Shown piece by piece: positions 8,159 to 43,752 of a stretch of 44,347 nt of DNA. A program made the position numbers and the translations under genes. The DNA lies in contig JAHJGB010000077.1 in NCBI GenBank assembly GCA_018824725.1, positions 1 to 44,347 on the forward strand, read 5' to 3'. Numbering within the stretch: the first letter of the stretch is position 1; every line of letters begins with the position of its first letter. The DNA comes from Candidatus Omnitrophota bacterium (GTDB lineage: Bacteria > Omnitrophota > Gorgyraeia > Gorgyraeales > Gorgyraeaceae). Below the pieces are notes generated by a model, which saw only the letters and a list, made by a program, of their open reading frames with translations, searched no databases and was not told the DNA's origin.

Positions 8159-8835
8159 TGCGGATGAGGAGATTTTTTAAAGAGGCTGTTTTTTTACTCA
8201 TTTTTTTAAATTTAACATATTCCGCCGTCTATTCTTTAGATGACAAGGAAAGGCTTGGCATTCAGTCTGCGCAAACTCAACAACAGCAGCAGATTTATCA
8301 AAATCAACAGCCTCAAAGGCCGATACTTCCGCCTGTTGTGCCTTTATCGCAACTGGGGATATCTCCTACGCCTTCTCCTCAAATTACAGCGCCTCTTATT
8401 CCGCCTACAGCTATTACCCCGCCTTCATTTCCTCCCAACTATCAGCCTGCTACTATACAGACTAATTATCAGAGTTCCCCGGCTCAGGCAATATTGCCAA
8501 ACACAAATGTCCCGACAGAATTGCCTCAGATACCAATTATCGGTAATTCCATCGGGAAGGTTATAAGCAGAGGCTCAGAAAAGGACGGCCTTCCGTGGAT
8601 AGAAGTAAAGGACGAAATTTTTAACGAAACCTTGAAAATAAAAATCAATCCTAAAACTACGCCTGTGATAAAGAAATCGACTGTCATGAGTTTCCCAGAC
8701 ATAAATATAGGCGATACTGTAAATGTCATTTTCAACCAGCAGGATGAAAATATAATAGCAAATTTTATCAGCATATTAACAGAGGAAGATTTGAAGGCAA
8801 TGGAAGAAAGCTTACCCGCTCCTTCCGAAGAATGA
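8158..8835 (+). CDS. Hypothetical secreted Pro/Gln-rich protein
   Basis: ORF 8155-8835. ATG at 8158 follows aaaggagag and overlaps the previous stop. It has a signal-like N-terminus, a Q/P-rich low-complexity linker and a small C-terminal beta-rich-looking domain. Confidence 0.5.
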   Translation: MRMRRFFKEAVFLLIFLNLTYSAVYSLDDKERLGIQSAQTQQQQQIYQNQQPQRPILPPVVPLSQLGISPTPSPQITAPLIPPTAITPPSFPPNYQPATIQTNYQSSPAQAILPNTNVPTELPQIPIIGNSIGKVISRGSEKDGLPWIEVKDEIFNETLKIKINPKTTPVIKKSTVMSFPDINIGDTVNVIFNQQDENIIANFISILTEEDLKAMEESLPAPSEE

Positions 8836-24955: not shown

Positions 24956-25476
24956 CTTAAAACGATTTGCCTCAAGCGCAATAGATCACCGGCATATGAT
25001 GTATATTTAGCCCATCGGGCACAACAAAGAGCCGTACAAGGCAAACATATCTCAGTACAGCGAGAACGTATACGCGATAAACGCATACAACGCTATATCA
25101 TAAAAAAACTCAAACTACGTTGGTCACCGGAATTAATCTCTAATACAGTGCCGGGTATTATTCCAGGCGCATCCATCAGCCCTGAGGCGGTTTATCAGTT
25201 TATCACGGATCAGAGAACGTCCAGCATGTGGATATCAATAAAGTGCTGGGTACGCAACCGTACTTCTGTAGCCCCTTTCATAGCTGGGAAAAAAGGCCTG
25301 TTGAAAATGTCATAAGGCTTGTGCGTATCTTCTTGTCTAAGAGTACGGACTTTGCTATAATTACCAAAGAATGGTTGCAACAGGTCGAAAATCTTATTAA
25401 CGAACGTCCTCACAAGTGTTTGGGTTATAAAACCCCTGATAAGGACTTTGCCTCAAGTGTTGCGCTTTACTGTTGA
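24956..25476 (+). mobile_element. IS30-family transposase remnant (internally deleted and frameshifted)
   Basis: The 5' part reads ...RNRSPAYDVYLAHRAQQRA...RYIIKKLKLRWSPELISN...SPEAVYQFI, which is IS30 N-terminal-like. The 3' part (ORF 25228-25476) reads FCSPFHSWEKRPVENVIRLVR...LINERPHKCLGYKTPDKDF, the IS30 C-terminal signature. Most of the DDE core between them is missing. Confidence 0.7.
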
Positions 25477-27550
25477 ATGCGGGCAGGTAATTTTGTTAAA
25501 AAAATTGTTTATTAGCGTTATAGTAATTTCAAATAATTCTGAGAGGACGTTGCTTTGCGCGGTCGATAATGTTTTAATGGCTGATTACGAAGATAATTTC
25601 GAGATTATTATAGTTGATGATGCGAGCCGGATAAAAGTTGAAAATTATATCACTGCAAATCAGAGAATTAAAATTATACGAAATAACATGAACAAGGGGC
25701 CGGCTTATAGCAGAAACGCTGGAGCGGAAATTGCCAAGGGGGATGTGTTATTCTTCATTGATTCAGATATATATGTCCGGAAGGATTCCCTTTCATTGAT
25801 CAATAGCGGCTTTGAACAAGGCGAGGTAAGCGCGCTTATCGGCCACTATGACGCCGCTTGTCTTTACCGGGATTTTTTTTCCAACTATTACAATTTACGG
25901 CTGATTAAAGCAAGCCGCGACCTCGGGGCGGACTATTGCCATGCTGCGGTGTACGCCATCCGCAAAGACGTCTTCGGAAAGCTAAGCGGGTTCGATACGA
26001 ACTATGCAAGGGCGTCTGTTGAGGACTTGGAGTTCGGCCGGAGGGTTTTTTCTTCCGGTTACAAGGCAAACGTGCTTGATACACTTACTGTAGTCCATGA
26101 CAAAAAACTTACCTTCGCAACCCTTCTCAAGAATGATTTCATCAGATCCGCGGACAGAATGGAGTTTGTTTTAAATTTGGCAGCGATACAGAATATTGTC
26201 AGGAACCGAAGATTTGATCACCACAATATAGAACAATTGCTTGCCATTTTCATTATCCCTTTTTTCTGGGCGAGCATTGTATTGAGCCTGGTCAGCACCT
26301 ACTTTTTCCTTCTCGTCTTACTTTTCCTGCCTATTTTTATATTCCTGAATCAGGGGTATCTCCTTTTTCTTTTTGAACAAAAGGGTTTCTGGTTTTATCT
26401 GAAAAGCATAGGATTTTATATTATTGACCTCAATGTCATCTTCACCGGCTTACTAGCTGGTTTGTTCGCCAATCTGGTGTTGAGGGTTCGGAGCCGGTGT
26501 TCGGGATTCGGGTATCTTCCGTACATAAAATATTTCTTCGTAAAGAATTTCCCGATGGAAATCACTTTTTTTGTTACGAACCGGTGCAACGCTGCGTGCG
26601 GGTATTGTTTTTATTATCGTGAGCTTAATGTTCCGAAACGCGAGCTGTCTTTACCTGAGATTGAAAGGATGTTTTCTGCTTTCGGCCCTTTGCTCAGGGT
26701 GCTTATGTCAGGAGGAGAGCCTTTTCTCAGGGAAGATCTACCCGATATTGTCAAGGCCATATGTGCGCATTCAAGGCCCAGGCATATCACTATCCCCACA
26801 AACGGCATTATGACTGATAAAATCATTGCTGCGGTAGAAGAAATGTTTGCCTATAGCGGCGATACCGTTATAAACATCACTCTCTCCCTTGCCGAATTGT
26901 ATGATAAAAGGGATCGACTCACAGGAGTCGAGGGGTCTTTTAACGATACTCTAAACACTTATTATAAGCTCAAGAAGCTAAAAGACCGATTCCCTCATCT
27001 TGTGGTAGGCGTCAATATTACAGTAACTTCATCAAACGCAGAACACGTAGAGCAGATATATGATTTTGCCAGAGATGAACTTCAGGCTGATACCCTGGCT
27101 TTTAGTTTAGTGAGGGATTCGCCGATGCCCGGCGAAGAAAGATTAATCGACATCGAAATATATAAAAGGTTGGTAGGGAAGACAAAAAAAGAAGAGAGCC
27201 GCCTCCGGTTCCCTTTTTGGAGATTGTTTGTCAGGAGAAGGGGCCAGGTATATGATTATGTCATAAAATCATACACAGAGCAGAGGTATCTTTTGCCATG
27301 TTATGCGGGGAAGATACGCGTAGTGATAACTCCCGAAGGGGATGTCTTTCCGTGCGAAACATTCATGCTTACAGGCCGGGAAGACTACCGCTTGGGGAAC
27401 TTGAGAGATTGTAATTACGATATAAAGCAAATCTTCAGGAATAAAAAACGAAATGAGGTATGCACGTATATCAAAGAAAGCAAGTGTCACTGCAGGCATG
27501 AGTGCGATCTTATTGCCAATATATCTTTCAATCCTCGTTTTTTGATGTAG
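25448..27550 (+). CDS. Tripartite fusion of a GT2 glycosyltransferase, a TM block and a radical SAM/SPASM-type domain
   Basis: The N-terminus ISVIVISNNSERTL...FEIIIVDDASR...FFIDSDI is GT2. About 4 hydrophobic spans lie at roughly 26230-26480. The C-terminus has FFVTNRCNAACGYCF (CxxxCxxC) and a Cys-rich tail LLPCYAGKIRVVITPEGDVFPCE...CTYIKESKCHCRHEC. The start is TTG at 25448 or TTG at 25493. Confidence 0.75.
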   Translation: MPQVLRFTVECGQVILLKKLFISVIVISNNSERTLLCAVDNVLMADYEDNFEIIIVDDASRIKVENYITANQRIKIIRNNMNKGPAYSRNAGAEIAKGDVLFFIDSDIYVRKDSLSLINSGFEQGEVSALIGHYDAACLYRDFFSNYYNLRLIKASRDLGADYCHAAVYAIRKDVFGKLSGFDTNYARASVEDLEFGRRVFSSGYKANVLDTLTVVHDKKLTFATLLKNDFIRSADRMEFVLNLAAIQNIVRNRRFDHHNIEQLLAIFIIPFFWASIVLSLVSTYFFLLVLLFLPIFIFLNQGYLLFLFEQKGFWFYLKSIGFYIIDLNVIFTGLLAGLFANLVLRVRSRCSGFGYLPYIKYFFVKNFPMEITFFVTNRCNAACGYCFYYRELNVPKRELSLPEIERMFSAFGPLLRVLMSGGEPFLREDLPDIVKAICAHSRPRHITIPTNGIMTDKIIAAVEEMFAYSGDTVINITLSLAELYDKRDRLTGVEGSFNDTLNTYYKLKKLKDRFPHLVVGVNITVTSSNAEHVEQIYDFARDELQADTLAFSLVRDSPMPGEERLIDIEIYKRLVGKTKKEESRLRFPFWRLFVRRRGQVYDYVIKSYTEQRYLLPCYAGKIRVVITPEGDVFPCETFMLTGREDYRLGNLRDCNYDIKQIFRNKKRNEVCTYIKESKCHCRHECDLIANISFNPRFLM

Positions 27551-27569: not shown

Positions 27570-29036
27570 ATGATTAATATGGGTGGATGCGCAGAATCAA
27601 ATCCGGAAATCATTAAAGACCTGATTAAGCGAGTTGCGTTTATTTATCTTTCATTAGCTCCTAGCGCAGTTGGAAGGAGAGCGATAAAAGAAAAGTTCAT
27701 CCTTAGGCGCAGGTTAGGACTTGAATATCTATGTGCGACGCTTAAAAATAAAAATATTGAAACCAAGATATACGATCAAGTATTGTTGGATTTTAGCTTA
27801 GAAAAATTAGTTAGTTTCTTAAAAAGGGACAAAATCGATTTAGTTGGTTTTTATATAATTTCAAAAAATCTTAACATCGTCAAATGCTATATTAAAGAAA
27901 TTAAAAAAAAGGTCAATATTCCAGTTATCTCTGGCGGACCCGGATGCAATCATTATAATGAACTTATTGATGCCGGATGTGAGATTGTATGCTTAGGCGA
28001 AGGAGATGAAACAATCGTTGAAATAGTAGATTATTATGAAGGGAGAGAGAGTTTAAGAGAGATAAAAGGTATTGCTTATTTCGATACAGAAACTAAAAAA
28101 ATTTTGACGACACTCGCAAGGCCTCTAATAAGTAATTTAGATAATTTACCTTTTCCTCATAGAGATCCAAAGATGATTCAAAAATATTGCGATTATTTTG
28201 CTTATCCACTCAAGAGGCCTTATATAACTATTATAACTTCGAGAGGTTGCCCGCATAATTGTTCTTTTTGTACCTCACATTCCTTTTGGAAAAGAAAATA
28301 TCGTCAACGCTCTGTAGAGAATGTGATTCAAGAGATTAAACAAGCAGTTCATGAATTAAATATTAAATCTATATATTTTGTTGATGATATTTTTGCTTTA
28401 GATTTTAATTGGCTGACAGAATTCTGCCAGGCAGTTAAGAAAGAAAAATTCAATTTTACCTGGATGTGCAACTTGCATCCAATGACTTTTAGAAAAACAA
28501 GAGAAAAAGCCTTTTCGCTCATGAAAGAATCAGGTTGTAGTATCATTTCTTTTGGAGCACAATCGGCTGATGCGGAGATATTGAAAAGAGTTAATAGAGA
28601 TCCTGGTGAGCCGGGAGAACTGAGAAAGGCAATCTGTCAGGCTAACTCTACGGGGATAACTACCGCTGTTACTTATATTTTCGGTTTACCAGGCGAAACA
28701 GTCAAGACCTTGCAAAAAAATATCGATTTTTGTCTTGAGGCGAAACCCCACATTGTGGATTTCCACCTTTTAGAGATTATACCTTTTTCTGATTTGAGCA
28801 TCCACTATAGCCAAGGAAGGGTCTGTGAATTAGGCGAGGATCAACTCGCCTATTATAATATGAAATATATGATGAGTTATTATTTGAGGCCCAAAATAGC
28901 CTTCCAATTGTTACGCGATATTTTAAATAAGAATCCGGCCAGAATCTTGACTTTTAGCCGTTTGGGGTTCCATTTCTTGAAAATTCTTTTGGCTTCTCCC
29001 GGATCCTTATTATCGGGACAATCTAAACAACGATGA
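27570..29036 (+). CDS. B12-binding-domain-type radical SAM protein, paralogue 6
   Basis: CLGEGDETIVEIV, IKGIAYF, TSRGCPHNCSFC, GLPGET and YYLRPKI motifs. Confidence 0.85.
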   Translation: MINMGGCAESNPEIIKDLIKRVAFIYLSLAPSAVGRRAIKEKFILRRRLGLEYLCATLKNKNIETKIYDQVLLDFSLEKLVSFLKRDKIDLVGFYIISKNLNIVKCYIKEIKKKVNIPVISGGPGCNHYNELIDAGCEIVCLGEGDETIVEIVDYYEGRESLREIKGIAYFDTETKKILTTLARPLISNLDNLPFPHRDPKMIQKYCDYFAYPLKRPYITIITSRGCPHNCSFCTSHSFWKRKYRQRSVENVIQEIKQAVHELNIKSIYFVDDIFALDFNWLTEFCQAVKKEKFNFTWMCNLHPMTFRKTREKAFSLMKESGCSIISFGAQSADAEILKRVNRDPGEPGELRKAICQANSTGITTAVTYIFGLPGETVKTLQKNIDFCLEAKPHIVDFHLLEIIPFSDLSIHYSQGRVCELGEDQLAYYNMKYMMSYYLRPKIAFQLLRDILNKNPARILTFSRLGFHFLKILLASPGSLLSGQSKQR

Positions 29037-31339
29037 ACCGTCTCTTCGATTCTATACGGATTAAATATCTACCGCTGTTGACCCTGGTATCATTTTACGT
29101 AGCCATAATGCTGCTTATCATATTTGCCGGTGGCGATAACTTTAAGCTGGTTGATGAGCTGATTGCTGGGACTATAGCCAAGATGTTGATTGATGGCATA
29201 GGTCTGGGGACTATTTTTCATTGCCTTTGGAATAGTCATGGGGGCCTGATCGTTGGCAGCATTATAACCGTTCCCTTTTTTCTTTTATTCGGGCAAAGCC
29301 TGATTGTGCTCAGATCAGTAGCAATATTTTTTTCTTCGGGCACGCTGATTCTTTTGTATCTATTCCTCTATAAGTTTTTCAATAGAAGAGCTGCGGTCTT
29401 GGCGAGCCTGCTCTTCATACTGGCTCCTCCCAATTATAGTAAGATGTCATTTACTCTTGTCGGTGGATATGCCGACACAAATTTATTTTCGATCCTGGCA
29501 TTTTTTATATTCTACAAGATTTTTTGGGGAGGAGGCGAAAGCCGGCGGTCTGCATATGCCCTTTTCGGACTTGTGTGCGGTTTCTCCCTTTTTTACGATT
29601 ACGGCTTTCTATTGACCTTATCGTGCTGTTTGCTATTTTGGTTTGTTTTTGATAAGGGTATCCTGGCAAGAAAAAGTTTTTATATATTCCTGGCATTTTT
29701 CCTTGTTGGTTTTAGCCCCGGGTTTTATTATAACGCAACCCATAATTGGAATTCCATTTTTGTCCTGCGCAAAGAACATTCCCTATTGTCCTTGTTTACA
29801 AAAAATAGTCTTTTTGATTCGTTAAACCAACTCAAGAATCTCATTGTTTTTGATATCCCGCATTATTTCGGTTTCAACGGCTTCTTTTCCATAAACAAAG
29901 ATGTTATTTCATATTTATATTATTCTATACCTGTTGTTTCTTTTATCGGGCTTTTCTGGTTGCAGAGGAGATCGATCGCAAGATTTTTATCTGGATTAAT
30001 CCCCTTGCGGCGTTTTAACATCCTGCCCGCAGCGATCCAACCTGAGACCCCCCTTATGATATATCTGATGATATTCGGGCTTGCCTTTGCATTCTGTGGT
30101 ATTGCGCAGTTCGCTGAAGATGATAGTATAGGCTTTCCCGAGAGATTGGTGGCATATATCATGCCGCATATTTTCATAGTCGTTTCCATCTTTTTGACTA
30201 AGATGATTCGGCATAGGCATGGCGCATGGATATCAAAAATGCTCGTTTCTGTGTTGATTGCCATCGGTTTGGTAGGTACCTTAGGCATGATCTCTGCACA
30301 GGATTATGCCATAAGCGCTCTGCCTGAGGGATATACGTACTTTATCTCAGGGAGATTATTCAGTAACTATAACGATGACATTAGAAAACCTTTAGATGTG
30401 ATCAAAACAATCGATGCAAAACATCGACCCTTATTTTACGACGGCTACAAGTGGGGATTTTCAAAAATCGGAAAAGATTTCTCGTTCGGAGGCTACGCGC
30501 AGAAAACGATAGCGGGAAGTATCGATAAGGAATACTGGCCTCTTGCCTATGAATATTTAGGCAGGGTGATGGGCCGCGGGCCCTGGCGGTATACCAAGGG
30601 CAGCGATGAGGAGTTTAAGGCCTGTGTGCAGGAAGAATTCCACCCCTATTTTTACCGGGGCCTGGGCAGGGCTTGCGTCGATAAGGAGTTTAGCGTACGT
30701 AGGTACATCCATATCCTGGGGATAATCGACAAACGATATTGGCGCTCTTTCCATGAAGGTATGGGTGTAGAAATGGATATCATGCTCATCGAGCACACGA
30801 AAGGATTTACCCGGTTTATCTCCGCCATAGACCCAGAGGCCAGGCAGGATATCTACCGAGGGTTCGCATATGGCAGGGGATACCCCGAAATTAGTTACCG
30901 CAAATTTCAGCCTGGTTTCGGCAAGATACTCCCCTCAAACAAAGAATGGGGAAAGCGCATAAGCACTGTCGAGGAAGAATTCAGGCCCTATTGTTACCAG
31001 AGATTGGGTATTGAGGTTGGTTGGAGGCTCATCTACGGCATCAGAGAAAACCTGCGCTTTTTACAGGAAGTCGATGAGAAATACAAGCCATATGTGTATA
31101 GGGGATTAGGCATAGGTATCGGGTGGAGGTTTGGGCATAACATAAACAGCTGTATAGTGTTAATAAAAAAAACAGAGCAACGGTGCTGGCCCTGGATATA
31201 TGAAGGCTTAGGAACAGGGATAGCTAAGAGATACGGTTGCCGGATGGATGAGCAAACTCGAGATAAAGAAGCTGATAAGATCCCTCCGGGATTCAGGCGC
31301 CAGTTCCACAATGGTTTAAAGGAGGTCCCCGGAATATGA
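29033..31339 (+). CDS. GT-C-like polytopic membrane protein with a C-terminal 34-residue repeat array (paralogue A)
   Basis: 768 aa. The start ATGA overlaps the upstream stop. First-loop motif is VDELIAGTIAKMLI, with about 11-13 TM spans. About 9 repeats of type [IV]D.E[YF].P..Y.GLG...GWRF lie at 30410-31320. Confidence 0.7.
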   Translation: MNRLFDSIRIKYLPLLTLVSFYVAIMLLIIFAGGDNFKLVDELIAGTIAKMLIDGIGLGTIFHCLWNSHGGLIVGSIITVPFFLLFGQSLIVLRSVAIFFSSGTLILLYLFLYKFFNRRAAVLASLLFILAPPNYSKMSFTLVGGYADTNLFSILAFFIFYKIFWGGGESRRSAYALFGLVCGFSLFYDYGFLLTLSCCLLFWFVFDKGILARKSFYIFLAFFLVGFSPGFYYNATHNWNSIFVLRKEHSLLSLFTKNSLFDSLNQLKNLIVFDIPHYFGFNGFFSINKDVISYLYYSIPVVSFIGLFWLQRRSIARFLSGLIPLRRFNILPAAIQPETPLMIYLMIFGLAFAFCGIAQFAEDDSIGFPERLVAYIMPHIFIVVSIFLTKMIRHRHGAWISKMLVSVLIAIGLVGTLGMISAQDYAISALPEGYTYFISGRLFSNYNDDIRKPLDVIKTIDAKHRPLFYDGYKWGFSKIGKDFSFGGYAQKTIAGSIDKEYWPLAYEYLGRVMGRGPWRYTKGSDEEFKACVQEEFHPYFYRGLGRACVDKEFSVRRYIHILGIIDKRYWRSFHEGMGVEMDIMLIEHTKGFTRFISAIDPEARQDIYRGFAYGRGYPEISYRKFQPGFGKILPSNKEWGKRISTVEEEFRPYCYQRLGIEVGWRLIYGIRENLRFLQEVDEKYKPYVYRGLGIGIGWRFGHNINSCIVLIKKTEQRCWPWIYEGLGTGIAKRYGCRMDEQTRDKEADKIPPGFRRQFHNGLKEVPGI

Positions 31340-32358: not shown

Positions 32359-34239
32359 ATGATTAAGAATAAATACTTCATTTTAATGGTTTTGTCTATA
32401 GTATTTGTTTGCGTGCGATTGCCTGCCATCATTACTTCAACGGATAAGATATTTGATTTTAATGAGTTGTATATCGGCACCATTGCTAAGGAATTGATTG
32501 AGAGCCCCTCGCTGCCGCTCTTTGATTATCAGTTAACGCATATAAAGGGAGGAACGTTGCTTGCGGGGATTTTTGTCATCCCTTTCTTTTGGCTATTTGG
32601 CCAGTCATATTTTGTTTTGAAGCTTGCTGCGCTCCTTGTTTCATTAATAATCCTTGCGGTGACCTACCTTTTTCTTTGGAGATTCTTCAATAAAAAGATT
32701 GCTATAATCACCGGAGCGCTTATGGCAATATCGGCGCCGATATACACTATATTCTCATTAATGCTTTATGGGAAAGAGTATGAGTCTATTCTTTTTACTA
32801 TGATAGCGTTATTTCTTTTCTATAGGATATTTTTTCAAGAAGCGTCGGCTCGCGAGGCCTCTCATAAAGAACTCTACTTTGCACTTTTTGGTTTGGTCAG
32901 CGGGTTAGGCATGTACTTTGATTATATTTTCGCGGCAACCCTGATTTACTGCCTGGGATTCTGGTTTATTTTTGATAAGGCTTTTTTTGCGCGAAGAGGC
33001 TTCCGGTTCTTTCTCATATTCTTTTTCGTGGGTTTAAGCCCCTGGATTTATTATAATCTCACGCACAATTTTGCTGCTATCTGTATTGATGACAATTATC
33101 ACGGCATACCCCTGAGACACCTATTTCTTTTAAACTCTTTACCTGAAGTAGCGTGTAAGCTGAAGGATCTTTTGTTATATTATCTGCCCAATTCTTTTTA
33201 TTTTATGGATTTTAAATCTATTCCCGGTGACGCTATATCGTATACCTACTATGCTATTTTTCTTCTTTCTTTTTGTATTCTTTTTTGGTTGAATAGAAAG
33301 ATCATATGGAAATTACTCTACGGGCTCATTCCATTAAGAAGAATGCGCCTTGCGCCAAGCTCAATTTATCGCGAGGCTTTCATATTGCTATACCCTATTA
33401 TTTTCTCATTCCTCTTTGCCTTTTCGTATTATACGCTTAGCAAGAAGGATGAATATAATTTTTTCGGTTTCAACGAATATAGGTTTCTGATTATGTTGTA
33501 CCCCTTTGTTTTTATTATCCTTGCCATTTTCTTAAGTAGATTATGGGATTGGAGTAAGAGGGGCAGAAGAATCGCTGCCTACCTCTCTGTGTGCATATCG
33601 CTCTTTCTTGTGGCGAGCGGGTTAAGCGCCGATTATAACCTTATAACTTTTCGCAACTTTCGCAATCGTTGTGTCCATGCGGGATATAATTATTTCTTCT
33701 TGGGTATGGCCTTCGGAGAAAAATATGGTAATTTTATTCCGGCAGCTGTGAGTCATGCGGAAAATATTCGCCAACCGTATAGAACCTCTGTCTTTCGTGG
33801 CATCGGATTTAATATCGGCTGGCGGTTCTTCCGCGGAAAAGAATATAGAGATATCGATATCTGCATGGCCCAGATAAACAAGGTCGATCCCGCATATCGT
33901 CCTTTTGCCCTCGAGGGCTTCGGGGCATTTTTGGAGATGCAATTAAAGGGCATCACCCGCGCTGCCTCTTATGTAAACAATATGGATAAGCAATATAGGC
34001 CGGATCTATACCGGGGGATAGGTTGGTTTATGGGGTTTAGGTTTAAGGATAGATTCTTTATGGCCACTGAGCCCATATACAAGATAGATGAAGAATACAG
34101 GCCTGACTATTGCAGGGGATTGGGAGAAATAGCCGGGGTAATATTTGGGCAAAATGAGAGCTGCTACACTGAGTTACTGAGAAACGCTGATCCGAAGTAT
34201 CGCCCGTATGTTTTAGAAGGTTTAACAAACAAACTGTGA
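32359..34239 (+). CDS. GT-C-like polytopic membrane protein with a C-terminal 34-residue repeat array (paralogue B)
   Basis: 626 aa. First-loop motif is FNELYIGTIAKELI. The TM core is colinear with 29033 and 40291 (FDKAFFARRGF...YYNLTHNF, IPLRRMRLAP). About 5 repeats lie at 33765-34236. Confidence 0.7.
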   Translation: MIKNKYFILMVLSIVFVCVRLPAIITSTDKIFDFNELYIGTIAKELIESPSLPLFDYQLTHIKGGTLLAGIFVIPFFWLFGQSYFVLKLAALLVSLIILAVTYLFLWRFFNKKIAIITGALMAISAPIYTIFSLMLYGKEYESILFTMIALFLFYRIFFQEASAREASHKELYFALFGLVSGLGMYFDYIFAATLIYCLGFWFIFDKAFFARRGFRFFLIFFFVGLSPWIYYNLTHNFAAICIDDNYHGIPLRHLFLLNSLPEVACKLKDLLLYYLPNSFYFMDFKSIPGDAISYTYYAIFLLSFCILFWLNRKIIWKLLYGLIPLRRMRLAPSSIYREAFILLYPIIFSFLFAFSYYTLSKKDEYNFFGFNEYRFLIMLYPFVFIILAIFLSRLWDWSKRGRRIAAYLSVCISLFLVASGLSADYNLITFRNFRNRCVHAGYNYFFLGMAFGEKYGNFIPAAVSHAENIRQPYRTSVFRGIGFNIGWRFFRGKEYRDIDICMAQINKVDPAYRPFALEGFGAFLEMQLKGITRAASYVNNMDKQYRPDLYRGIGWFMGFRFKDRFFMATEPIYKIDEEYRPDYCRGLGEIAGVIFGQNESCYTELLRNADPKYRPYVLEGLTNKL

Positions 34240-36575
34240 TTAAGGTTATGTCCACGCTGAGGTTTAAAGAAAAATTCGCTTTGATAATTTTTGGTCTCGT
34301 TATCTGTGTGGTTTTACTTGAGTTAGGATTGCGATTTGGGGGATGGGTATTTTTATCTTTCCAAGAACACAGAAATAAAGTTGTCTCTAAGGAGAAAGGT
34401 GCGTATCGCATCCTCTGCTTAGGTGAGTCTACTACCGCCTGGACTATAGAACTAGACGAAGGAGAAACCTCGTATCCCAGCCAGCTTCAAGAAATCCTCA
34501 ATCAAAGCGATTTAGAAAAAAAATTCATTGTAATCAATGCAGGAGTTTCTGGAATTACCACTACGGGGATTGTAAGACAATTATCAGATAATTTAAGTAA
34601 ATATAGCCCGGATATAGTAATTACGATGATGGGGATAAATGACTCAAATATTCTTCCTTATGAGAACGCATCTCTTCCTCGAATATTGTCTTTTTTGAAG
34701 GAATATAGAGTCTATAAACTTGTAAGCCTTCTGTGGTTGCATAGTGTCAATAAATTTAATGAACTACGAGAGGAAGATTGCTTTTCAATAGGCACGGCGC
34801 TGTCAACAAGGTTTAAGAAAGAAGAAGCGAGGCTAAAGCAGGCTATCGAGATGAACCCCAGCGATAATAAGGTTTATCTTGAATTAGGCAGTTATTATCT
34901 GGATTCAGCAAGATTCCGGGAAACAGAAAAAATGTTTAAAAAAGCTATCATGGCTGACGCCGGAGATGATACGGCCTATTTTGAATTAGGAAAGTGTTAT
35001 GCAGAGACAGCAAGATTTAAGGAAGCAGAAGAACTATTCCAAAAGGCCCTTGCAATAAACCCTCAAAACCATGAGGCCTATCTCGAATTAACCCTGTATT
35101 ATATAAGTGAGGGGCGACTTCAAGATATAGAAGAGATGATTAAAAAGGTTATCGAAAGAGCTCCCGGAGATGGCAATGCTTATGCTCTATTAGGCTGGTA
35201 TTATATGCATATAGGAAGAAACCAAAAGGCAGAGGATATACTTAAGAGAGCTATTGAACTAAATCCAGAAAATTACCATGCACTCCTTGCCCTGAAGTCG
35301 CATTACTTAGATACAGGAAGATTCCGGGAAGCAGAAGAAACACAGGATAGATTGGACGCCATAAAGCCGAAAACCTATGAGACATATGTTAAATTGGGCT
35401 ATTGTTATCTCCAAACAGGAAGATCTCAGAAGGGAGAAGAGCTGCTTCTAAGAGCTATTGCAATAGACCCTCAAAACTATAAGCTCTATCACTATTTAGG
35501 GTACTGCTGTTACAATCCCCTAAGAAGATATCGAGAGGCAGAGAATATATTGAAAAGAGCTATCGCAATAAACCCCGAAAGTAGTGAAGCGTATTTAGGA
35601 TTGGGCCAGTTTTATATCAACCAAGGAAAATATCCAGAAGCTAGAAAGCTTATTAAAAAGGCCCTTAAGGCGAGTCCAAAAAGTTACAAAGCATACGTGG
35701 CATTTGAGTCGTATGATGTGAGTCCGAGGAGCCTTAAAACATACACTACATTTGGAGCGTATTATTACAAAGCAGGAAGATTCCGGGAAGCAGAAAGAAT
35801 ATTTCACAAGATTCTCGAAATAAACCCAAGAAATTACGAAATATACCTTCAGCTTAGCAGATGTTACAGGGCTGCAGGCGAATTGCGCAAGGCAGAAGAG
35901 GTGTTTACAAAGGCAATAGAAATAAATCCGAGAGAGTCAAGGGCATATTTTAGATTAGGGTGTTTGTATCAGATGGAGGCAAGATATGAAGAGGCGGAAC
36001 AGACATGGATAAAGGGTTTAAAAATAAATCCAGAAAATTATGACATATGTTCTAAATTAGCTCAACTTTATACAAAGGAGAAAAGATTTCAAGACGCGGA
36101 AAAAATCTTTCAAAGAATTTTTGAGATAAATCCACAAAATCGCGCAATATATCTTGAACTCGGAGATTATTTCAAGCCTATTACAAAATCTCAAGAGGCA
36201 GAAGAAGCGCTTAAAGAAGAATCACCATTGGCTATAAGAAGATATATACAGCGCACAAATAGATTAGCTGCCTATAAAAAAGCCACAATTGATAACTACC
36301 AAAAACTTAGGGAAATCTTGCGAGAAAGGGGGATAAAGCTGATAGTAGTACAGTATCCCTGTCGCAGTATAAAGCCATTAAAGAATATTTTTGAGAATAA
36401 AGAAGGTATCATTTTCGTAGATAATGAAAATACGTTTAGAGAGGCATTAAAGCAGGGTAATTATAACGAATATTTTAATGACCGTTTTGCCGGTGACTTC
36501 GGCCATTGCACTCGCAGAGGCAATCGATTATTGGCCGAAACAATAGCAAATGCCATAATTCAGGCTGGGTATTAG
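34236..36575 (+). CDS. Membrane-anchored SGNH/GDSL hydrolase interrupted by a long TPR array
   Basis: N-terminal TM span. SGNH block I is LCLGESTT (Ser65), block II is NAGVSG, block III is MGINDS. About 12 canonical TPRs follow (roughly 34820-36190), then block V is GDFGH (D754..H757). The start is GTG 34236 or ATG 34248. Confidence 0.7.
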   Translation: MIKVMSTLRFKEKFALIIFGLVICVVLLELGLRFGGWVFLSFQEHRNKVVSKEKGAYRILCLGESTTAWTIELDEGETSYPSQLQEILNQSDLEKKFIVINAGVSGITTTGIVRQLSDNLSKYSPDIVITMMGINDSNILPYENASLPRILSFLKEYRVYKLVSLLWLHSVNKFNELREEDCFSIGTALSTRFKKEEARLKQAIEMNPSDNKVYLELGSYYLDSARFRETEKMFKKAIMADAGDDTAYFELGKCYAETARFKEAEELFQKALAINPQNHEAYLELTLYYISEGRLQDIEEMIKKVIERAPGDGNAYALLGWYYMHIGRNQKAEDILKRAIELNPENYHALLALKSHYLDTGRFREAEETQDRLDAIKPKTYETYVKLGYCYLQTGRSQKGEELLLRAIAIDPQNYKLYHYLGYCCYNPLRRYREAENILKRAIAINPESSEAYLGLGQFYINQGKYPEARKLIKKALKASPKSYKAYVAFESYDVSPRSLKTYTTFGAYYYKAGRFREAERIFHKILEINPRNYEIYLQLSRCYRAAGELRKAEEVFTKAIEINPRESRAYFRLGCLYQMEARYEEAEQTWIKGLKINPENYDICSKLAQLYTKEKRFQDAEKIFQRIFEINPQNRAIYLELGDYFKPITKSQEAEEALKEESPLAIRRYIQRTNRLAAYKKATIDNYQKLREILRERGIKLIVVQYPCRSIKPLKNIFENKEGIIFVDNENTFREALKQGNYNEYFNDRFAGDFGHCTRRGNRLLAETIANAIIQAGY

Positions 36576-38121: not shown

Positions 38122-38877
38122 ATGGCTATTTCTCTTGTAATGCCGGTCTATAATGAAGAGGGTGTAATAGAAAAAGTAGTACGGGACTGTTACGCGGAAA
38201 TTATCGCTAAAATAGAAGGTTCCGAGTTTATTATTGTCAATGATGCCAGCACGGACTCTACTCCCGAGATCCTTGAAAGGCTCGCAAAAGAATTTCCCCA
38301 AATAAAACTTCTGCGCCTAGATAAGAACAATGGGCATGGGAACGCTCTTCGCGCGGGGTTCGCGAAAGTGAGAAACCCGGTTATTTTACATATGGACAGC
38401 GACGCTCAATTCCAGGCAGGGCAGTTCTGGAAATTGTATCAAAGACTGGCAGATAGCGATATAGTTTTGGGGCTGCGCGCTTCCAGGCACGACCCGTTGC
38501 ATCGCAAGGCCATTTCATTCATAGTGCGGCTCATAAATATGGCCCTGTTCGGCTTCTTAGTGAAAGATATCAATTCTCCGTTCAAATGCATCAAGACAGG
38601 AATTTTGCAGGATATTTTAAACGATATACCTCCGAACGCTTTTGCCATTTCAATCCTCATGGTGATCATGGCCAAACATAAGGGATATCGAGTCGCCGAA
38701 GTTCCCATAATTCATTTTCCCAGGACAACCGGCAGGAGTAAGCTTGCAAGCGCGCGTTATTTATTCAAAAAATGCCTTTTTTGTTTGCTTGATATTCTGC
38801 GGGTTAAATGGAATTTATTGACTAAAAACCGCAATAGCACGGTAGGGCGCAATGAAAATTATATTAATAATCCCTAA
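38122..38877 (+). CDS. GT2 glycosyltransferase, polyprenyl-phosphate sugar synthase type (Dpm1/ArnC/GtrB-like)
   Basis: ISLVMPVYNEEGVIEKVV...FIIVNDASTDSTPEIL...NNGHGNALRAGF...MDSDAQF. It is about 250 aa with a short hydrophobic C-terminal part, the typical layout of this subgroup. Confidence 0.7.
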   Translation: MAISLVMPVYNEEGVIEKVVRDCYAEIIAKIEGSEFIIVNDASTDSTPEILERLAKEFPQIKLLRLDKNNGHGNALRAGFAKVRNPVILHMDSDAQFQAGQFWKLYQRLADSDIVLGLRASRHDPLHRKAISFIVRLINMALFGFLVKDINSPFKCIKTGILQDILNDIPPNAFAISILMVIMAKHKGYRVAEVPIIHFPRTTGRSKLASARYLFKKCLFCLLDILRVKWNLLTKNRNSTVGRNENYINNP

Positions 38878-40290: not shown

Positions 40291-42642
40291 ATGACAGGGC
40301 ATAAACTTATCAGAAGCAGATATATTTGTTTGGTAGCTTTGACGCTAATATATTTATTGGTTCGATTAACGGTCTTATTCTGTTCCATAGATAAGGTACA
40401 TTTAGATGAAGAATTATATCGCGGTAATATTACTAAGGAATTGATTTCTGGGCCGGCTTTTCCATTTTTTGATTACCAAAGGAGTGAGTACGAAGGCGGT
40501 TCATTGCTAAACGGTATTTTGGCGTTGCCGTTTTTTTTGCTTTTTGGAGAGACGTTGATATCTCTCAAATTGGTAGGGTTATTGATAGGAACAAGCCTAT
40601 TCATTTTATGGTATTTATTTTTAGACAGGTTTTTCAGTAGAAGGGTAGCAATTTGGACAAGTTTACTGTTTATTCTAATGCCGCCTTTCTGGATTAAGAT
40701 CAGCATTTCTAGTTACGGCGGGCAAGACCAAATCGGCCTCTTTACCATGCTGGCGATATTGATTTTTTACCAGATATTTTTTGTAAGAAGTACAAAGGCC
40801 CTTTTTGGGTTCTTAGGAGTAGCCTGCGGTTTTGGCCTGTTCTTCCATTGCAGTTTTTTGCCGACATTATTAACTGTTATTTTATTCTGGTTTATTTTCG
40901 ATAAGAAATTCTTCCTCAGGAGCGAATTCTTTATTTTTACCATCGCTTTCTTAGTCGGTTTTGCTCCATGGATCTGGTATAATCTTACCCACAATTTTCA
41001 AGGATTGATCGTAAACGATGAACTTCTGTCTTACTGGTTTTCGCGCAATAACCCTCTTCATTTCTTTTTGAGGATCAAGGATTTTGTTACAATTGAAATC
41101 GCAAATGCTTTTAGTTTTGAAGATACTATTTTGAGATTCGAGCCTCGCGCGTTACTCGGCAATTGGTTTTTTTCCCGTATTTATTATTTTGTATTTGTGT
41201 TTTCCTTTTGCGCGCTATCGTGGCTCAACCGCCGGTCTTTGGTAAAACTCATACGAGGCATTATCCCTCTCCGAGGTTTCACGGTATCGCCTCAAGACAT
41301 ATCCAAAGAGGTATTCTTGCTTATGTTTTTTGTGATATTTGATCTCATCTTAAGCCTGTCCGGTATTAAACATAATGTAAATAATTATGAGAGTAGCGTG
41401 TGGCGTTACAGACAAGTCATGCCTGTCGGTCTTTTTGTTCCTGCGGTGATAGCCATATTCTTATACGGAAAGGGCATACAATTCAGGCGTTTTTTTATTC
41501 CCTATTTTAATTTCTGTATTATGGCGCTTTTGCTGGGATTGGGGCTGGTCTCCAGCTTTAATTTCATTTCTAAGGATTGCCTGCGCAAGGCCGCCTTATC
41601 TGGGATATACCGTGGTTACAACTATTATAATTTAGGGAGGGTGATTGCGTGGAGGTTTGACGGTTCTCCGCGATGGATCGACTCCATAAAAAGAATTAAA
41701 GACGGGGAGGCCAGGCGATATTGCTATTCCGGCATGGGCTGGGGATACGCTGAAGATAAATTTGATGCTGATTATCATTATTACCTAAGTACGGTAATAC
41801 ATAAGATCGAGAGGGATTACTGGCCGTATGCCTATGAGTGGATGGGGGAAGCATTAGAAAGGGAGCTCAAGTATGATAAATCAACAACCGCCGAATTAAA
41901 AAATTTGCTTGACCCTGAATTCATTCCTAATTTCTATACCGGTGTGGGCCGCCAGGCAGTCGCAGAGGTTTTCGGTGATCCGGAGCAGACGGTTTTGGAT
42001 TTCAGGAAAAGAATCGACAAGGAATACGAGCCTTTTTTTTATCATGGCATTGGAGTCGAGCTATTTGACGCCTTAGTTAATCAGCCGAAAAAATTCTTTA
42101 GTTTTATGAGCGCAATTGACAAAAGATTTGAACCTCAGATATATACAGGATTGGCCCAGGGAAAAGAATATTATCGGTTTCTGTATCGTGATTTTGGGTT
42201 CGGTATCGGGAAGAAGGTTGGTTATGATATCGGAAAGTGGAAATGGATTATGAGTAAGATAGGAAAAGAGTACAGGCCTTTCTGCTACGAGCGGCTGGGT
42301 ATCGAGGCAGGATGGAGGTTTATCCACGGCATAAAAAAATACAGTTCATTTTTAAGGGCGGCTGACCAGGAATATTGGCCGTATCTCTACAGGGGTTTAG
42401 GAACCGGTATTGGGTGGAGGTTTGCCTATAACATCGAGGGATGCGTAGCATTGATAAAATATGCTGATCAGGCATTTTGGCCCTATATATACGAAGGCCT
42501 GGGAGTAGGCGTGGCCAGGAGATATGCCTATCAGAAAGATGCATGGGCAAAAGGTGCCAGGTATATACCCGGGGATTACCGGCCTTATTTTGACGCAGGT
42601 ATAAAAAATGATTTTGACCGCAGGTATGGAGGACACGATTAG
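40291..42642 (+). CDS. GT-C-like polytopic membrane protein with a C-terminal 34-residue repeat array (paralogue C)
   Basis: 783 aa. First-loop motif is LDEELYRGNITKELI (40405-40446). The TM core is colinear with 29033 and 32359. About 10 repeats lie at 41607-42620, and the last three are spaced exactly 34 aa apart. Confidence 0.7.
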   Translation: MTGHKLIRSRYICLVALTLIYLLVRLTVLFCSIDKVHLDEELYRGNITKELISGPAFPFFDYQRSEYEGGSLLNGILALPFFLLFGETLISLKLVGLLIGTSLFILWYLFLDRFFSRRVAIWTSLLFILMPPFWIKISISSYGGQDQIGLFTMLAILIFYQIFFVRSTKALFGFLGVACGFGLFFHCSFLPTLLTVILFWFIFDKKFFLRSEFFIFTIAFLVGFAPWIWYNLTHNFQGLIVNDELLSYWFSRNNPLHFFLRIKDFVTIEIANAFSFEDTILRFEPRALLGNWFFSRIYYFVFVFSFCALSWLNRRSLVKLIRGIIPLRGFTVSPQDISKEVFLLMFFVIFDLILSLSGIKHNVNNYESSVWRYRQVMPVGLFVPAVIAIFLYGKGIQFRRFFIPYFNFCIMALLLGLGLVSSFNFISKDCLRKAALSGIYRGYNYYNLGRVIAWRFDGSPRWIDSIKRIKDGEARRYCYSGMGWGYAEDKFDADYHYYLSTVIHKIERDYWPYAYEWMGEALERELKYDKSTTAELKNLLDPEFIPNFYTGVGRQAVAEVFGDPEQTVLDFRKRIDKEYEPFFYHGIGVELFDALVNQPKKFFSFMSAIDKRFEPQIYTGLAQGKEYYRFLYRDFGFGIGKKVGYDIGKWKWIMSKIGKEYRPFCYERLGIEAGWRFIHGIKKYSSFLRAADQEYWPYLYRGLGTGIGWRFAYNIEGCVALIKYADQAFWPYIYEGLGVGVARRYAYQKDAWAKGARYIPGDYRPYFDAGIKNDFDRRYGGHD

Positions 42643-43752
42643 ATGCGGATAGCAGTTGTTGGCGCAGGATTATCGGGCTGTACAATCGCGCGGCTCCTTA
42701 AAGACAGGGGGCACGATATTACCATTTTTGAGAAAGAGAAAAGGATAGGCGGTCTTTGTGCGACCGCCACCCATAGAGGCCGGCCTTATCAATTATTTGG
42801 CCCTCATAATTTTCATACCCACAACGAGTCTGTTATTAAGTTTCTCTGCAGATTTAGCGCATTCAATAATTATGTCCATCGCGTGGGAACGTTTGTCGAT
42901 GGCAAGGTTTTACCATATCCGATTAGCTATAAGACGATAGACATACTAGAGGAAAGAGACTATATATTAAAAGAACTTGCGCATCTTCCTAAGAAGGTTA
43001 ATATGGCAAACTTCGAAAGCTGTGTTGTCTCGATGGTCGGAAAGACCTTATATAAAAAATTTATCGAAAACTATACTCTGAAGTTTTGGAGAATATCTCC
43101 GAAGAAGATGGGAGCAGAATGGGCGCCCGAGAAGATAGAGATCAGGCGCGATGACAGTTTGGGATATTTCGGGGACGAATGGCAGGGCCTGCCGACACAG
43201 GGCTATACGCATATGTTCGAAAAAATTATAGAGGGTATACCGATTCATTACGATGTAGAAATAAAGGATTATCGGGACCTGAGGCATGATTTGGTCATAT
43301 CTACCATTCCGATAGACGAGCTGTTCAGCTTTTGCTATGGCCGATTGGCTTATAGAGGGCTCGATTTTGTCATACATTTCAAAGAAACAGAATGGGAAGA
43401 CGTCAAATACGGCTGCATAAATTTTCCTGAAAGAGATGTTGCTTATACGAGAAAGAGCAATTACAGCTTGTGCTATTACAATGGCCCGCTGAGTTCCTAT
43501 ATTGTTGGCTATGAATTTCCCGGCAATGCAAGCAGGATGTATCCTATTTATACTTCTCAAAATAAAAAACTTTTCAATAAATATCTAACGCATTTGATAA
43601 TGGTAAAAAATCTTATAAGTGTTGGAAGATTGGGACTTTTTCGCTATTACGATATGGACAAAACAGTAGAATGGTGCCTCGATAATATCGATATGGTGGA
43701 AAATTACCCGTCTTTAACCCCCGCGGAGAGGATACAATGGCTGTCTCTGTGA
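42643..43752 (+). CDS. glf: UDP-galactopyranose mutase
   Basis: N-terminal FAD fold IAVVGAGLSGCTIARLL..ITIFEKEKRIGG. It is colinear with Glf through FGPHNFHT, YTLKFW, WQGLPTQGYT, LAYRGLDF, VAYTRKSNY, MYPIYTSQN and VGRLGLFRYYDMD. ggagga lies before the ATG. Confidence 0.85.
   Translation: MRIAVVGAGLSGCTIARLLKDRGHDITIFEKEKRIGGLCATATHRGRPYQLFGPHNFHTHNESVIKFLCRFSAFNNYVHRVGTFVDGKVLPYPISYKTIDILEERDYILKELAHLPKKVNMANFESCVVSMVGKTLYKKFIENYTLKFWRISPKKMGAEWAPEKIEIRRDDSLGYFGDEWQGLPTQGYTHMFEKIIEGIPIHYDVEIKDYRDLRHDLVISTIPIDELFSFCYGRLAYRGLDFVIHFKETEWEDVKYGCINFPERDVAYTRKSNYSLCYYNGPLSSYIVGYEFPGNASRMYPIYTSQNKKLFNKYLTHLIMVKNLISVGRLGLFRYYDMDKTVEWCLDNIDMVENYPSLTPAERIQWLSL

What the first reader, a model, noticed from the sequence alone, without database searches (positions are those of the whole stretch)
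41607..42642. Unassigned 34-residue tandem repeat (consensus [IVA]D.E[YF][RW]P[YF].Y.G[LI]G.G.GWRF) at the C-termini of three GT-C-like proteins
Seen in sequence: 40291 carries about 10 units. Examples are IGKEYRPFCYERLGIEAGWRFIHGIKKYSSFLRA, ADQEYWPYLYRGLGTGIGWRFAYNIEGCVALIKY and ADQAFWPYIYEGLGVGVARRYAYQKDAWAKGARY, each exactly 34 aa. 29033 carries about 9 units (30410-31320), for example VDEKYKPYVYRGLGIGIGWRFGHNINSCIVLIKK. 32359 carries about 5 units (33765-34236). Equivalent repeats are more similar between paralogues than neighbouring repeats are within one protein, so the array predates the gene duplications. The 34-aa period equals that of TPRs, but the Y.GLG...GWRF core with invariant aromatics and glycines is not the canonical TPR or SEL1 consensus. 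The neighbouring gene 34236 carries textbook TPRs for direct comparison. Established knowledge: GT-C enzymes fused to C-terminal TPR arrays (eukaryotic TMTCs, bacterial PMT_2-TPR proteins) use the array for acceptor recognition. Inference: this is a divergent helical-solenoid acceptor-binding domain, possibly a new repeat family.
Basis: partly seen in the sequence, partly recalled or inferred. Interest (0 to 1): 0.75.

Follow-up and report, generated by a model that had tools for sequence, protein, structure and literature searches.

The report
DUF1702-like helical repeat on glycosyltransferases
The 34-residue repeat at the ends of three membrane glycosyltransferases is real and is not a TPR, but it is a distant relative of the uncharacterised Pfam family DUF1702 rather than a new repeat family, and it probably forms an outward-facing helical domain that holds the enzyme's substrate.

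Summary
Three paralogous ORFs (40291-42642, 29033-31339, 32359-34239) each have an N-terminal 11-helix GT-C (PMT/ArnT-like) membrane domain. Each ends in an array of about 10, 9-10 and 5-6 units of a 34-residue repeat. The family-wide core is Y-R-P-Y-x-Y-E-G-L-G-x-x-I-G-x-R-F, and lag-34 autocorrelation gives z = 12.7, 6.5 and 5.1.

AlphaFold2 predicts an all-alpha hairpin solenoid. No Pfam TPR, SEL1 or HEAT model matches, and hhalign against the neighbouring TPR protein gives 0.2% probability.

"New repeat family" is not supported. A profile of the tails finds bona fide DUF1702 (PF08012) proteins at E of 1e-7 to 1e-9 in 1.84 billion sequences. hhalign of tails against DUF1702 gives 98% probability, E 1.4e-13, over 210 collinear columns. 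A DUF1702 HMM scores the tails at 40-54 bits, against at most 7 bits for shuffles.

DUF1702 has no known function or solved structure. Pfam's own model misses these tails, and I found no annotation or paper describing the fusion to GT-C enzymes.

Topology and exported relatives place the domain outside the cytoplasmic membrane. Conserved neighbours (an ArnC-like GT2, UDP-galactopyranose mutase, many B12 radical-SAM genes) fit lipid-linked-sugar glycosylation of an unknown envelope acceptor. Acceptor binding is inferred, not shown.

The parts
40291..42642 (+). Paralogue A, 783 aa: GT-C membrane domain plus repeat tail
   Evidence: ORF. Orthologues of 776-802 aa cover 96-100% of it. Full-length AlphaFold2 model has pLDDT 86.5 and pTM 0.87.
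40291..41580 (+). A residues 1-430: 11-TM GT-C (PMT/ArnT-like) domain, with a D39-E40-E41 motif in the first outward loop
   Evidence: PMT_2 E 7.9e-4, below the gathering cutoff. Foldseek matches Pmt4 9i5k and ArnT 5ezm/5f15 at probability 1.00, TMt 0.43-0.50. Helix list.
41596..42639 (+). A repeat array, residues 436-783: 10 units. Boundaries are U1 41596-41694, U2 41695-41805, U3 41806-41907, U4 41908-42012, U5 42013-42114, U6 42115-42258 (14-aa insertion), U7 42259-42360, U8 42361-42462, U9 42463-42564, U10 42565-42639 (partial).
   Evidence: AlphaFold2 hairpin helices. hhalign to DUF1702.
29033..31339 (+). Paralogue B, 768 aa
   Evidence: N-terminal HMM 447.6 bits and tail HMM 280.6 bits.
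30311..31333 (+). B repeat array, residues 427-767: weak U1 plus 9 units
   Evidence: DUF1702 HMM scores 40.0 bits against a shuffle maximum of 4.7.
32359..34239 (+). Paralogue C, 626 aa, short-tail type
   Evidence: The closest database protein in the full-length alignment, P0175, is 72% identical.
33664..34236 (+). C repeat array, residues 436-626: 5-6 units
   Evidence: Weak direct Pfam DUF1702 hit, E 0.029. DUF1702 HMM scores 41.2 bits against a shuffle maximum of 7.2.
38122..38877 (+). Small GT2, ArnC/Dol-P-hexose-transferase-like: the likely maker of the lipid-linked sugar donor (context)
   Evidence: Glycos_transf_2 E 3.8e-27. Best NCBIfam hit is undecaprenyl-phosphate Ara4FN transferase, E 3.9e-18 and below cutoff; Dol-P-hexose transferase and PpgS also match.
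42643..43752 (+). UDP-galactopyranose mutase homologue directly downstream of A; its start codon abuts A's stop codon (context)
   Evidence: GLF E 5.6e-38. TIGR00031 E 6e-62, below cutoff.
34236..36575 (+). GDSL/SGNH plus canonical TPR protein. It is conserved in the related cluster L002, and L001 has a TPR gene cut by the contig end (context, and the negative control for TPR)

Best explanation
Each of the three genes encodes an 11-helix GT-C glycosyltransferase of the PMT/ArnT type. Its C-terminal 190-350 residues are a solenoid of 34-residue helix-turn-helix units. In each unit, the long first helix carries Y-x-P-x-x-Y-x-G-x-G-x-x-x-G, with glycines on both faces for tight helix packing, and the second helix is short. 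The solenoid belongs to the superfamily of the uncharacterised Pfam family DUF1702 (annotated 'enediyne biosynthesis protein'), of which it is a divergent, longer, fused form. It sits on the outer (periplasmic) side of the membrane, next to the enzyme's outward-facing catalytic loop. The proposed mechanism is as follows. The adjacent ArnC-like GT2 loads a sugar onto polyprenyl phosphate; that sugar is possibly galactofuranose, given the adjacent mutase. The three GT-C paralogues then transfer lipid-linked sugar to an extracytoplasmic acceptor, and the solenoid binds or positions that acceptor. The different tail lengths of the paralogues would give different acceptor or step specificity. What is shown: the repeat, the predicted fold class, homology to DUF1702, the GT-C fold, and the conserved gene context. 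What is inferred: the outward topology, the identity of the donor, and the acceptor-binding role.
For: Repeat: and 69 (729 units in 208 proteins; Y5 77%, Y10 81%, G12 76%, G14 92%). Fold: the tail model has pLDDT 76.6 and pTM 0.79 and is all-alpha. The full-length model has pLDDT 86.5 and pTM 0.87. DUF1702 homology: the tail profile found 221 representative clusters at E<=1e-3. Five of 74 scanned hits match PF08012, the best at 1.9e-32. P0104, P0128 and P0132 pass Pfam's cutoff at 86-113 bits and were hit by the tail profile at 2.4e-9, 7.2e-8 and 1.2e-7. hhalign gives 98.05% probability, E 1.4e-13, over 210 columns. A DUF1702 HMM scores the tails 54.4, 40.0 and 41.2 bits, against a shuffle maximum of 5-7. 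GT-C fold. Outward location: DSSP of the model gives 11 TM helices. The loops at residues 1-10, 114-117, 166-170, 204-210, 313-338 and 393-401 are the K/R-rich ones (sequence, helices), which puts the N-terminus inside and the tail outside. Among 22 relatives with a single N-terminal hydrophobic segment, 17 have a positively charged N-flank typical of a signal anchor, and two have lipobox-like segments. Selection: the tail is as conserved as the catalytic domain or more so (for example 71% against 52% versus P0161), and 102 tail positions are at least 80% conserved in 23 long-type sequences. Context: small GT2, B12 radical-SAM genes, a TPR-GDSL gene and several GT-C paralogues recur in L001, L002 and L004. 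The GT2 is ArnC-like.
Against: No binding or activity data exist. Pfam's own DUF1702 model does not reach its cutoff on any of the three tails; the best is 13.7 bits for C. Only the repeat core of DUF1702 (positions 66-279 of 344) aligns, not its N- and C-terminal parts. Foldseek gives no PDB match at E<0.001, either for the tail or for the full-length model including its GT-C domain, so the fold class rests on predicted models. Topology rests on the positive-inside rule and helix counting. The conserved tail positions shared by long- and short-type sequences are almost all core Tyr/Gly, which fits a scaffold but says nothing specific about a ligand.
Confidence: 0.6

Rival explanations
1. The tail is a divergent TPR or SEL1 array, like the luminal TPRs of TMTC enzymes or bacterial PMT_2-TPR proteins.
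For: It has the same 34-residue period and a helix-turn-helix prediction. Designed PPR and other alpha-solenoids top the Foldseek list.
Against: No TPR, SEL1 or HEAT Pfam model hits any tail even at E<=10. hhalign against the canonical TPR protein in the same window gives 0.23% probability. The conserved Y/P/Y/G/G/G core differs from the TPR consensus. Foldseek matches have TM 0.2-0.25 and E>=0.01.
Confidence: 0.07
2. It is a new repeat family unrelated to any described domain.
For: No Pfam or NCBIfam model reaches threshold. No PDB sequence or fold match was found. Database entries carry no domain annotation on the tail.
Against: Reciprocal profile hits to bona fide DUF1702 proteins, and hhalign at 98% probability with E 1.4e-13. 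DUF1702 sequences visibly carry the same Y..Y.G.G units at about 34-residue spacing.
Confidence: 0.08
3. The solenoid does not bind the acceptor. Instead it handles a long linear lipid (the polyprenyl carrier), or it is a protein-protein scaffold that joins the three paralogues and the TPR-GDSL protein into one periplasmic assembly.
For: Standalone DUF1702 occurs next to an UnbV_ASPIC/FG-GAP protein and FAS/PKS-type genes (L005) and in enediyne clusters (PMC7692728). The substrates there are long linear polyenes, not glycans. Three paralogues and a TPR protein are co-conserved. The high pTM of 0.87 suggests the tail is docked rigidly on the membrane domain.
Against: No direct evidence supports either variant. 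GT-C enzymes bind the polyprenyl carrier within the membrane domain (known from the ArnT and PglB structures, from my own knowledge). The different tail lengths of the paralogues fit acceptor specificity better than a shared lipid-handling role.
Confidence: 0.25

Closest known systems
[quoted passage not shown]
   Same: It has the same repeat unit (Y..Y.G.G... at about 34 residues) in collinear order over about six units. hhalign gives 98% probability and E 1.4e-13, and HMM hits are reciprocal. Several members have an N-terminal signal anchor, consistent with a location outside the cytoplasm.
   Different: DUF1702 proteins are standalone and 320-350 aa long, with about six units plus specific N- and C-terminal segments that do not align. 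The window tails have up to 10 units, are fused to a GT-C enzyme, and fall below Pfam's cutoff. The contexts also differ: polyketide/polyene clusters against glycan clusters. The function of DUF1702 is itself unknown. The equation with UnbL rests on adjacency to UnbV and on my memory; it was not tested.
TMTC1-4 and bacterial PMT_2-TPR proteins (GT-C enzymes with C-terminal TPR arrays)
   Same: The architecture is the same: a PMT/ArnT-like GT-C membrane domain followed by a C-terminal helical-repeat domain with a 34-residue period on the non-cytoplasmic side. This is the working analogy for acceptor recognition (established knowledge).
   Different: The repeat here is not a TPR by any sequence test.
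ArnT/ArnC and PMT (GT83/GT39) lipid-linked monosaccharide transfer systems
   Same: The GT-C fold matches Pmt4 and ArnT. An acidic motif sits in the first outward loop, and an ArnC-like GT2 is encoded nearby. NCBI names relatives 'glycosyltransferase family 39 protein' or 'ArnT family glycosyltransferase'.
   Different: PMT_2 scores are below the gathering cutoff. There is no MIR domain, the C-terminal domain is unrelated to that of ArnT, and the donor and acceptor are unknown.
Proteasome Rpn1/Rpn2 PC-repeat toroid
   Same: It gives the best TM-scores for the tail model (TMq 0.36-0.39), and its helical hairpin repeats of similar length are glycine-rich.
   Different: Foldseek E-values are 0.07-0.25, so the match is not significant, and there is no sequence relationship. 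The resemblance is of fold class only.

Membership tests
DUF1702 (PF08012) | Scores at or above Pfam's gathering cutoff (25 bits) with the PF08012 model | tested here: not met
   Tails scanned at E<=10: the C tail scores 13.7 bits (E 0.029), and A and B give no hit.
DUF1702 (PF08012) | Significant profile-profile and reciprocal profile-sequence homology to proteins that pass the Pfam cutoff | tested here: met
   hhalign 98.05%, E 1.4e-13, 210 columns. The tail profile hits P0104, P0128 and P0132 at 1e-7 to 1e-9 in 1.84e9 proteins. The DUF1702 HMM scores the tails 40-54 bits, against at most 7.2 for shuffles.
DUF1702 (PF08012) | Standalone protein of about 320-350 aa covering the whole 319-position model, including its terminal segments | tested here: not met
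   Only DUF1702 positions 66-279 align. Here the domain is the C-terminal part of 626-783-aa GT-C proteins.
TPR / SEL1 / HEAT-PBS lyase repeats | Match to any Pfam model of these repeat families | tested here: not met
   No such hit at E<=10 for the three tails, whereas the neighbouring protein scores up to 7e-64. hhalign of the tails against that protein gives 0.23% probability.
GT-C glycosyltransferases (PMT/ArnT-like, GT39/GT83) | Multi-spanning GT-C fold | tested here: met
   Foldseek on the full-length model matches Pmt4, ArnT, ALG9/12, PglB, AglB and EmbC at probability 1.00, TMt up to 0.50, but with E-values of only about 0.01-0.1. The model has pLDDT 86.5.
GT-C glycosyltransferases (PMT/ArnT-like, GT39/GT83) | PMT_2 (PF13231) at or above the gathering cutoff of 26.1 bits | tested here: not met
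   Scores are 20.1, 18.5 and 23.1 bits. Twenty-five of 74 relatives match PMT_2 at E<=0.01, the best at 6.1e-14.
GT-C glycosyltransferases (PMT/ArnT-like, GT39/GT83) | Conserved acidic catalytic motif in the first extracytoplasmic loop | tested here: inconclusive
   The motif is D39-E40-E41 in A, D-E in B and N-E in C. E41 is nearly invariant in 47 sequences. Its position relative to the active site was not checked in 3D.
GT-C glycosyltransferases (PMT/ArnT-like, GT39/GT83) | Uses a polyprenyl-phosphate-linked sugar donor | not testable with these tools
   There is only contextual support, from the ArnC-like GT2 at 38122-38877.

The most novel reading that the evidence does not exclude
DUF1702/UnbL, whose role in enediyne-core biosynthesis is unknown as far as I recall, may be a 34-residue hairpin-repeat solenoid that works at the outer face of the cytoplasmic membrane. 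Its most common setting among the hits found here would be as the C-terminal substrate-handling domain of a clade of GT-C glycosyltransferases from Omnitrophota, Patescibacteria and Altiarchaeota, inside conserved clusters rich in B12 radical-SAM genes that build an undescribed envelope glycoconjugate. If so, the fusion gives a functional handle on both the DUF and the cluster.
Probability: 0.25. Interest if true: 0.6.

Novelty: new variant of a known kind. Interest (0 to 1): 0.42.

Why it matters
The result assigns a previously unannotated region of about 350 residues to an existing but uncharacterised superfamily. Proteins with this region fall into about 220 clusters at 50% identity, mostly from uncultured Omnitrophota and CPR-type lineages. 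It shows that DUF1702 is built from a 34-residue repeat. It adds a second kind of helical-repeat C-terminal domain to GT-C enzymes, beside the TPRs of TMTC-type proteins. The link also runs the other way. The outward-facing, membrane-proximal setting of the fused form suggests where and how the enediyne-associated DUF1702 protein might act. Practically, Pfam PF08012 could be rebuilt as a repeat or extended model to annotate these tails.

Tried and rejected
- Direct Pfam and NCBIfam scans of the full proteins and of the tails alone gave nothing at threshold.
- PDB sequence searches with the tail, the tail profile and a DUF1702 profile gave no relative.
- Foldseek of the tail model against the PDB gave only generic solenoids at E>=0.01, so no fold assignment was taken from it.
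- The word-indexed homologue search with the tail found only 3 proteins. One of them (P0001, 354 aa) looked like a standalone domain, but it is a truncated gene call of a 777-aa ORF (L001 6919-9252).
- Literature searches were unproductive. 'DUF1702' returned 2 incidental papers. 'PF08012' returned only Plasmodium papers, apparently matches to gene identifiers. Searches for UnbL, SgcE3 and diiodotetrayne gave nothing on function. One search was rejected for term length.
- A Kyte-Doolittle TM count was unreliable, giving 8-10 helices. I replaced it with helix boundaries from the AlphaFold2 model.
- NCBIfam gave no family for DUF1702 members.
- A look-up of the genomic context of P0104 found no record.
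- A possible inter-repeat disulfide (Cys at position 9 of unit i with Cys at position 28 of unit i+1, odds ratio 3.5) was noted.
Full report
**Observation**

The window carries three + strand ORFs: A 40291-42642 (783 aa), B 29033-31339 (768 aa) and C 32359-34239 (626 aa).

An HMM seeded with seven clear units finds matches at about 34-residue spacing in the C-terminal 190-350 residues of each protein. Alignment of the paralogues delimits 10 units in A. These are residues 436-468, 469-505, 506-539, 540-574, 575-608, 609-656 (with a 14-residue insertion), 657-690, 691-724, 725-758 and a partial 759-783. B has 9 units plus a weak first one, and C has 5-6.

BLOSUM62 autocorrelation peaks at lag 34 in all three tails, with z = 12.7, 6.5 and 5.1 against shuffles. 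The N-terminal domains show no such peak.

Units at equivalent positions in A and B share 14.6 of 34 identities on average. Non-equivalent pairs share 7.3, and pairs within one protein share 8.0 and 7.4. No other ORF in the window has the repeat.

**What the repeat is**

Pfam and NCBIfam give nothing at threshold for the tails, and no TPR, SEL1 or HEAT model hits even at E<=10. The only trace is PF08012 (DUF1702) at E 0.029 on the C tail.

hhalign of the tail alignment against the canonical TPR protein encoded at 34236-36575 gives 0.23% probability. So the 34-residue period is shared with TPRs but the sequence family is not.

AlphaFold2 on the tail (6 sequences) gives pLDDT 76.6 and pTM 0.79 with an all-alpha pattern. 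In most units a helix of 14-19 residues carrying the Y.P..Y.G.G...G motif is followed by a shorter helix of about 10 residues. The full-length model (47 sequences) has pLDDT 86.5 and pTM 0.87 and shows the same pattern.

The glycines at unit positions 12, 14, 16 and 18 fall on two faces of the long helix. This suggests tight packing against both neighbouring units; that is inference from helical geometry.

Foldseek against the PDB finds no match below E 0.001. The list holds generic solenoids, and the best TM-scores (0.36-0.39) are to the Rpn1/Rpn2 PC-repeat toroids.

**Relatives**

A word-indexed search with the A tail found only three proteins. One, P0001 from a Candidatus Omnitrophota assembly, is a truncated gene call of a 777-aa ORF. 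Its contig (L001) holds three full-length paralogues in a cluster syntenic with the window.

An exhaustive HMMER scan of 1.84 billion representatives with the tail profile found 221 clusters at E<=1e-3, 78 at E<=1e-10 and 16 at E<=1e-30.

Of the 148 hits retrieved from that scan, 88 have an N-terminal domain homologous to the window's GT-C domain. Twenty-nine have one to five N-terminal hydrophobic segments, mostly a single one. The rest are mostly fragments.

Iterating a unit HMM over 208 proteins collected 729 units. The consensus is I-D-x-E-Y(77%)-R-P-Y-x-Y(81%)-E-G(76%)-L-G(92%)-x-x-I-G/A-x-R-F/Y.

**Link to DUF1702**

- Five of 74 scanned hits match PF08012, the best at 1.9e-32.
- P0104, P0128 and P0132 pass Pfam's cutoff with 86-113 bits. 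The tail profile had found them at 2.4e-9, 7.2e-8 and 1.2e-7.
- NCBI names members of the 90%-identity clusters of P0104 and P0132 'DUF1702 family protein'.
- Their sequences show the same Y..Y.G.G units at about 34-residue spacing.
- hhalign of the tails against four DUF1702 proteins gives 98.05% probability and E 1.4e-13 over 210 collinear columns. This covers roughly tail units 4-10 against DUF1702 positions 66-279.
- A DUF1702 HMM scores the window tails at 54.4, 40.0 and 41.2 bits. Five hundred shuffles of each tail reach at most 5-7 bits, so composition does not explain the match.

The repeat is therefore a divergent, extended and fused form of the DUF1702 repeat core. It is not a new family. 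It does fail Pfam's own threshold, and it lacks DUF1702's terminal segments.

DUF1702 has no solved structure by sequence search and no known function. It is annotated 'enediyne biosynthesis protein' (PMC7692728). One member lies next to an UnbV_ASPIC/FG-GAP protein and FAS/PKS-type genes (L005). Together with the 'unbLVU' cassette (PMC2997539), this suggests it is UnbL. That identification is inference.

**The enzyme and its topology**

The N-terminal 430 residues match PMT_2 weakly. In the full-length model they match Pmt4, ArnT, ALG9/12, PglB, AglB and EmbC at Foldseek probability 1.00, though with E-values of only 0.009-0.13. Database names for relatives are 'glycosyltransferase family 39 protein' and 'ArnT family glycosyltransferase'. 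They come from Omnitrophica, Patescibacteria-group and Altiarchaeota bins.

The model's helices give 11 membrane spans. The K/R-rich loops are residues 1-10, 114-117, 166-170, 204-210, 313-338 and 393-401. This puts the N-terminus inside, the D39-E40-E41 loop outside and the tail outside (sequence and helices; inference by the positive-inside rule).

Among relatives without a GT-C domain, 17 of 22 have a positively charged N-flank before one hydrophobic segment. Two have lipobox-like sequences. Both features indicate export.

**Selection and context**

Among orthologues the tail is as conserved as the membrane domain, or more so. Against P0161 the tail is 71% identical and the membrane domain 52%. 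In 23 long-type sequences, 102 tail positions are at least 80% conserved.

The window cluster contains eight B12-binding radical-SAM genes, further radical-SAM genes, methyltransferases, a DegT aminotransferase, a GT2-radical-SAM-SPASM fusion and a GDSL-TPR protein. It also contains a 251-aa GT2 whose best NCBIfam match is ArnC (3.9e-18, below cutoff) and a UDP-galactopyranose mutase homologue.

B12 radical-SAM genes, a small GT2 and more than one PMT_2-type GT-C gene recur in loci L001, L002 and L004. The TPR-GDSL gene recurs in L002, and a TPR gene cut by the contig end lies at the start of L001.

**Mechanism**

The best-supported reading is this. The GT2 makes a polyprenyl-phosphate sugar. 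The three GT-C paralogues transfer it to an extracytoplasmic acceptor. The DUF1702-like solenoid, docked on the outer face, binds or positions that acceptor, by analogy with the TPR arrays of TMTC-type GT-C enzymes. The binding role, the donor and the acceptor are all inferred.

A rival reading is that the solenoid handles a long linear lipid or acts as a protein scaffold. The polyene/polyketide context of standalone DUF1702 suggests this, and it cannot be excluded.

**Verdict**

The claim of a new repeat family is replaced by remote membership of the DUF1702 superfamily. This is a new variant of a known kind, of moderate interest.

Noticed in passing
window 11783-40249: The cluster is unusually dense in radical-SAM genes. 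Eight are B12-binding radical-SAM ORFs (11783, 16136, 17921, 21222, 22496, 27570, 36686, 38852), and there is a further radical-SAM ORF at 31336. Best NCBIfam matches for 36686 are BchE, HpnJ and 'lipid biosynthesis B12/rSAM', all far below cutoff. The same pairing with GT-C and GT2 genes recurs in L001, L002 and L004. Their substrate is unknown.
   Followed up: partly
window 25448-27550: A single 700-aa ORF fuses an N-terminal GT2 domain, a hydrophobic middle region and a C-terminal radical-SAM/SPASM domain. This looked to me an unusual architecture.
   Followed up: no
window 34236-36575: A 779-aa protein has a GDSL/SGNH hydrolase signature at the N-terminus and a long canonical TPR array. 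A 549-aa counterpart with the same domains is conserved in L002. It is a possible glycan O-acyl esterase or transferase partner.
   Followed up: partly
window 40291-42642 (and L001 6919-9252): Public gene calls truncate these proteins. The window's own protein is on record as 712 aa (P0152, start near residue 72). P0001 is called as 354 aa inside a 777-aa ORF. Orthologue coverage supports the long ORFs.
   Followed up: yes
window 29033-29036, 31336-31339, 34236-34239, 42640-42645: Start and stop codons of consecutive genes overlap by 4 bases at 29033, 31336 and 34236, and abut without a gap at 42642/42643. This suggests one translationally coupled operon.
   Followed up: no
A residues C665 and C718 (window 42283-42285, 42442-42444): These cysteines are conserved in all 23 long-type sequences. 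They sit at unit position 9 (U7) and position 28 (U8). Family-wide, Cys9 of one unit co-occurs with Cys28 of the next (odds ratio 3.5, p 1.3e-4, not corrected for phylogeny). A disulfide is possible and would fit an extracytoplasmic location.
   Followed up: partly
L005 5315-9035: A bona fide DUF1702 gene sits directly after an 880-aa FG-GAP/UnbV_ASPIC/TPR gene and a set of ketosynthase, FabA/ApeI-like and KR genes. This looks like an aryl-polyene-like or polyyne-like cluster rather than a classical enediyne PKS.
   Followed up: no
window 19326-21023, 10682-11719, 7703-8835: ORFs of 565, 345, 151 and 226 aa have no Pfam match. The 565-aa ORF also has no NCBIfam match and lies among the B12 radical-SAM genes.
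   Followed up: no
L003 5229-17127: In the archaeal (Altiarchaeota-named) locus, the repeat-bearing GT-C lies among two DUF2298 proteins, a PTPS_related protein and another PMT/PMT_2 protein, all large membrane proteins. There are no B12 radical-SAM genes, so the radical-SAM association is not universal.
   Followed up: no
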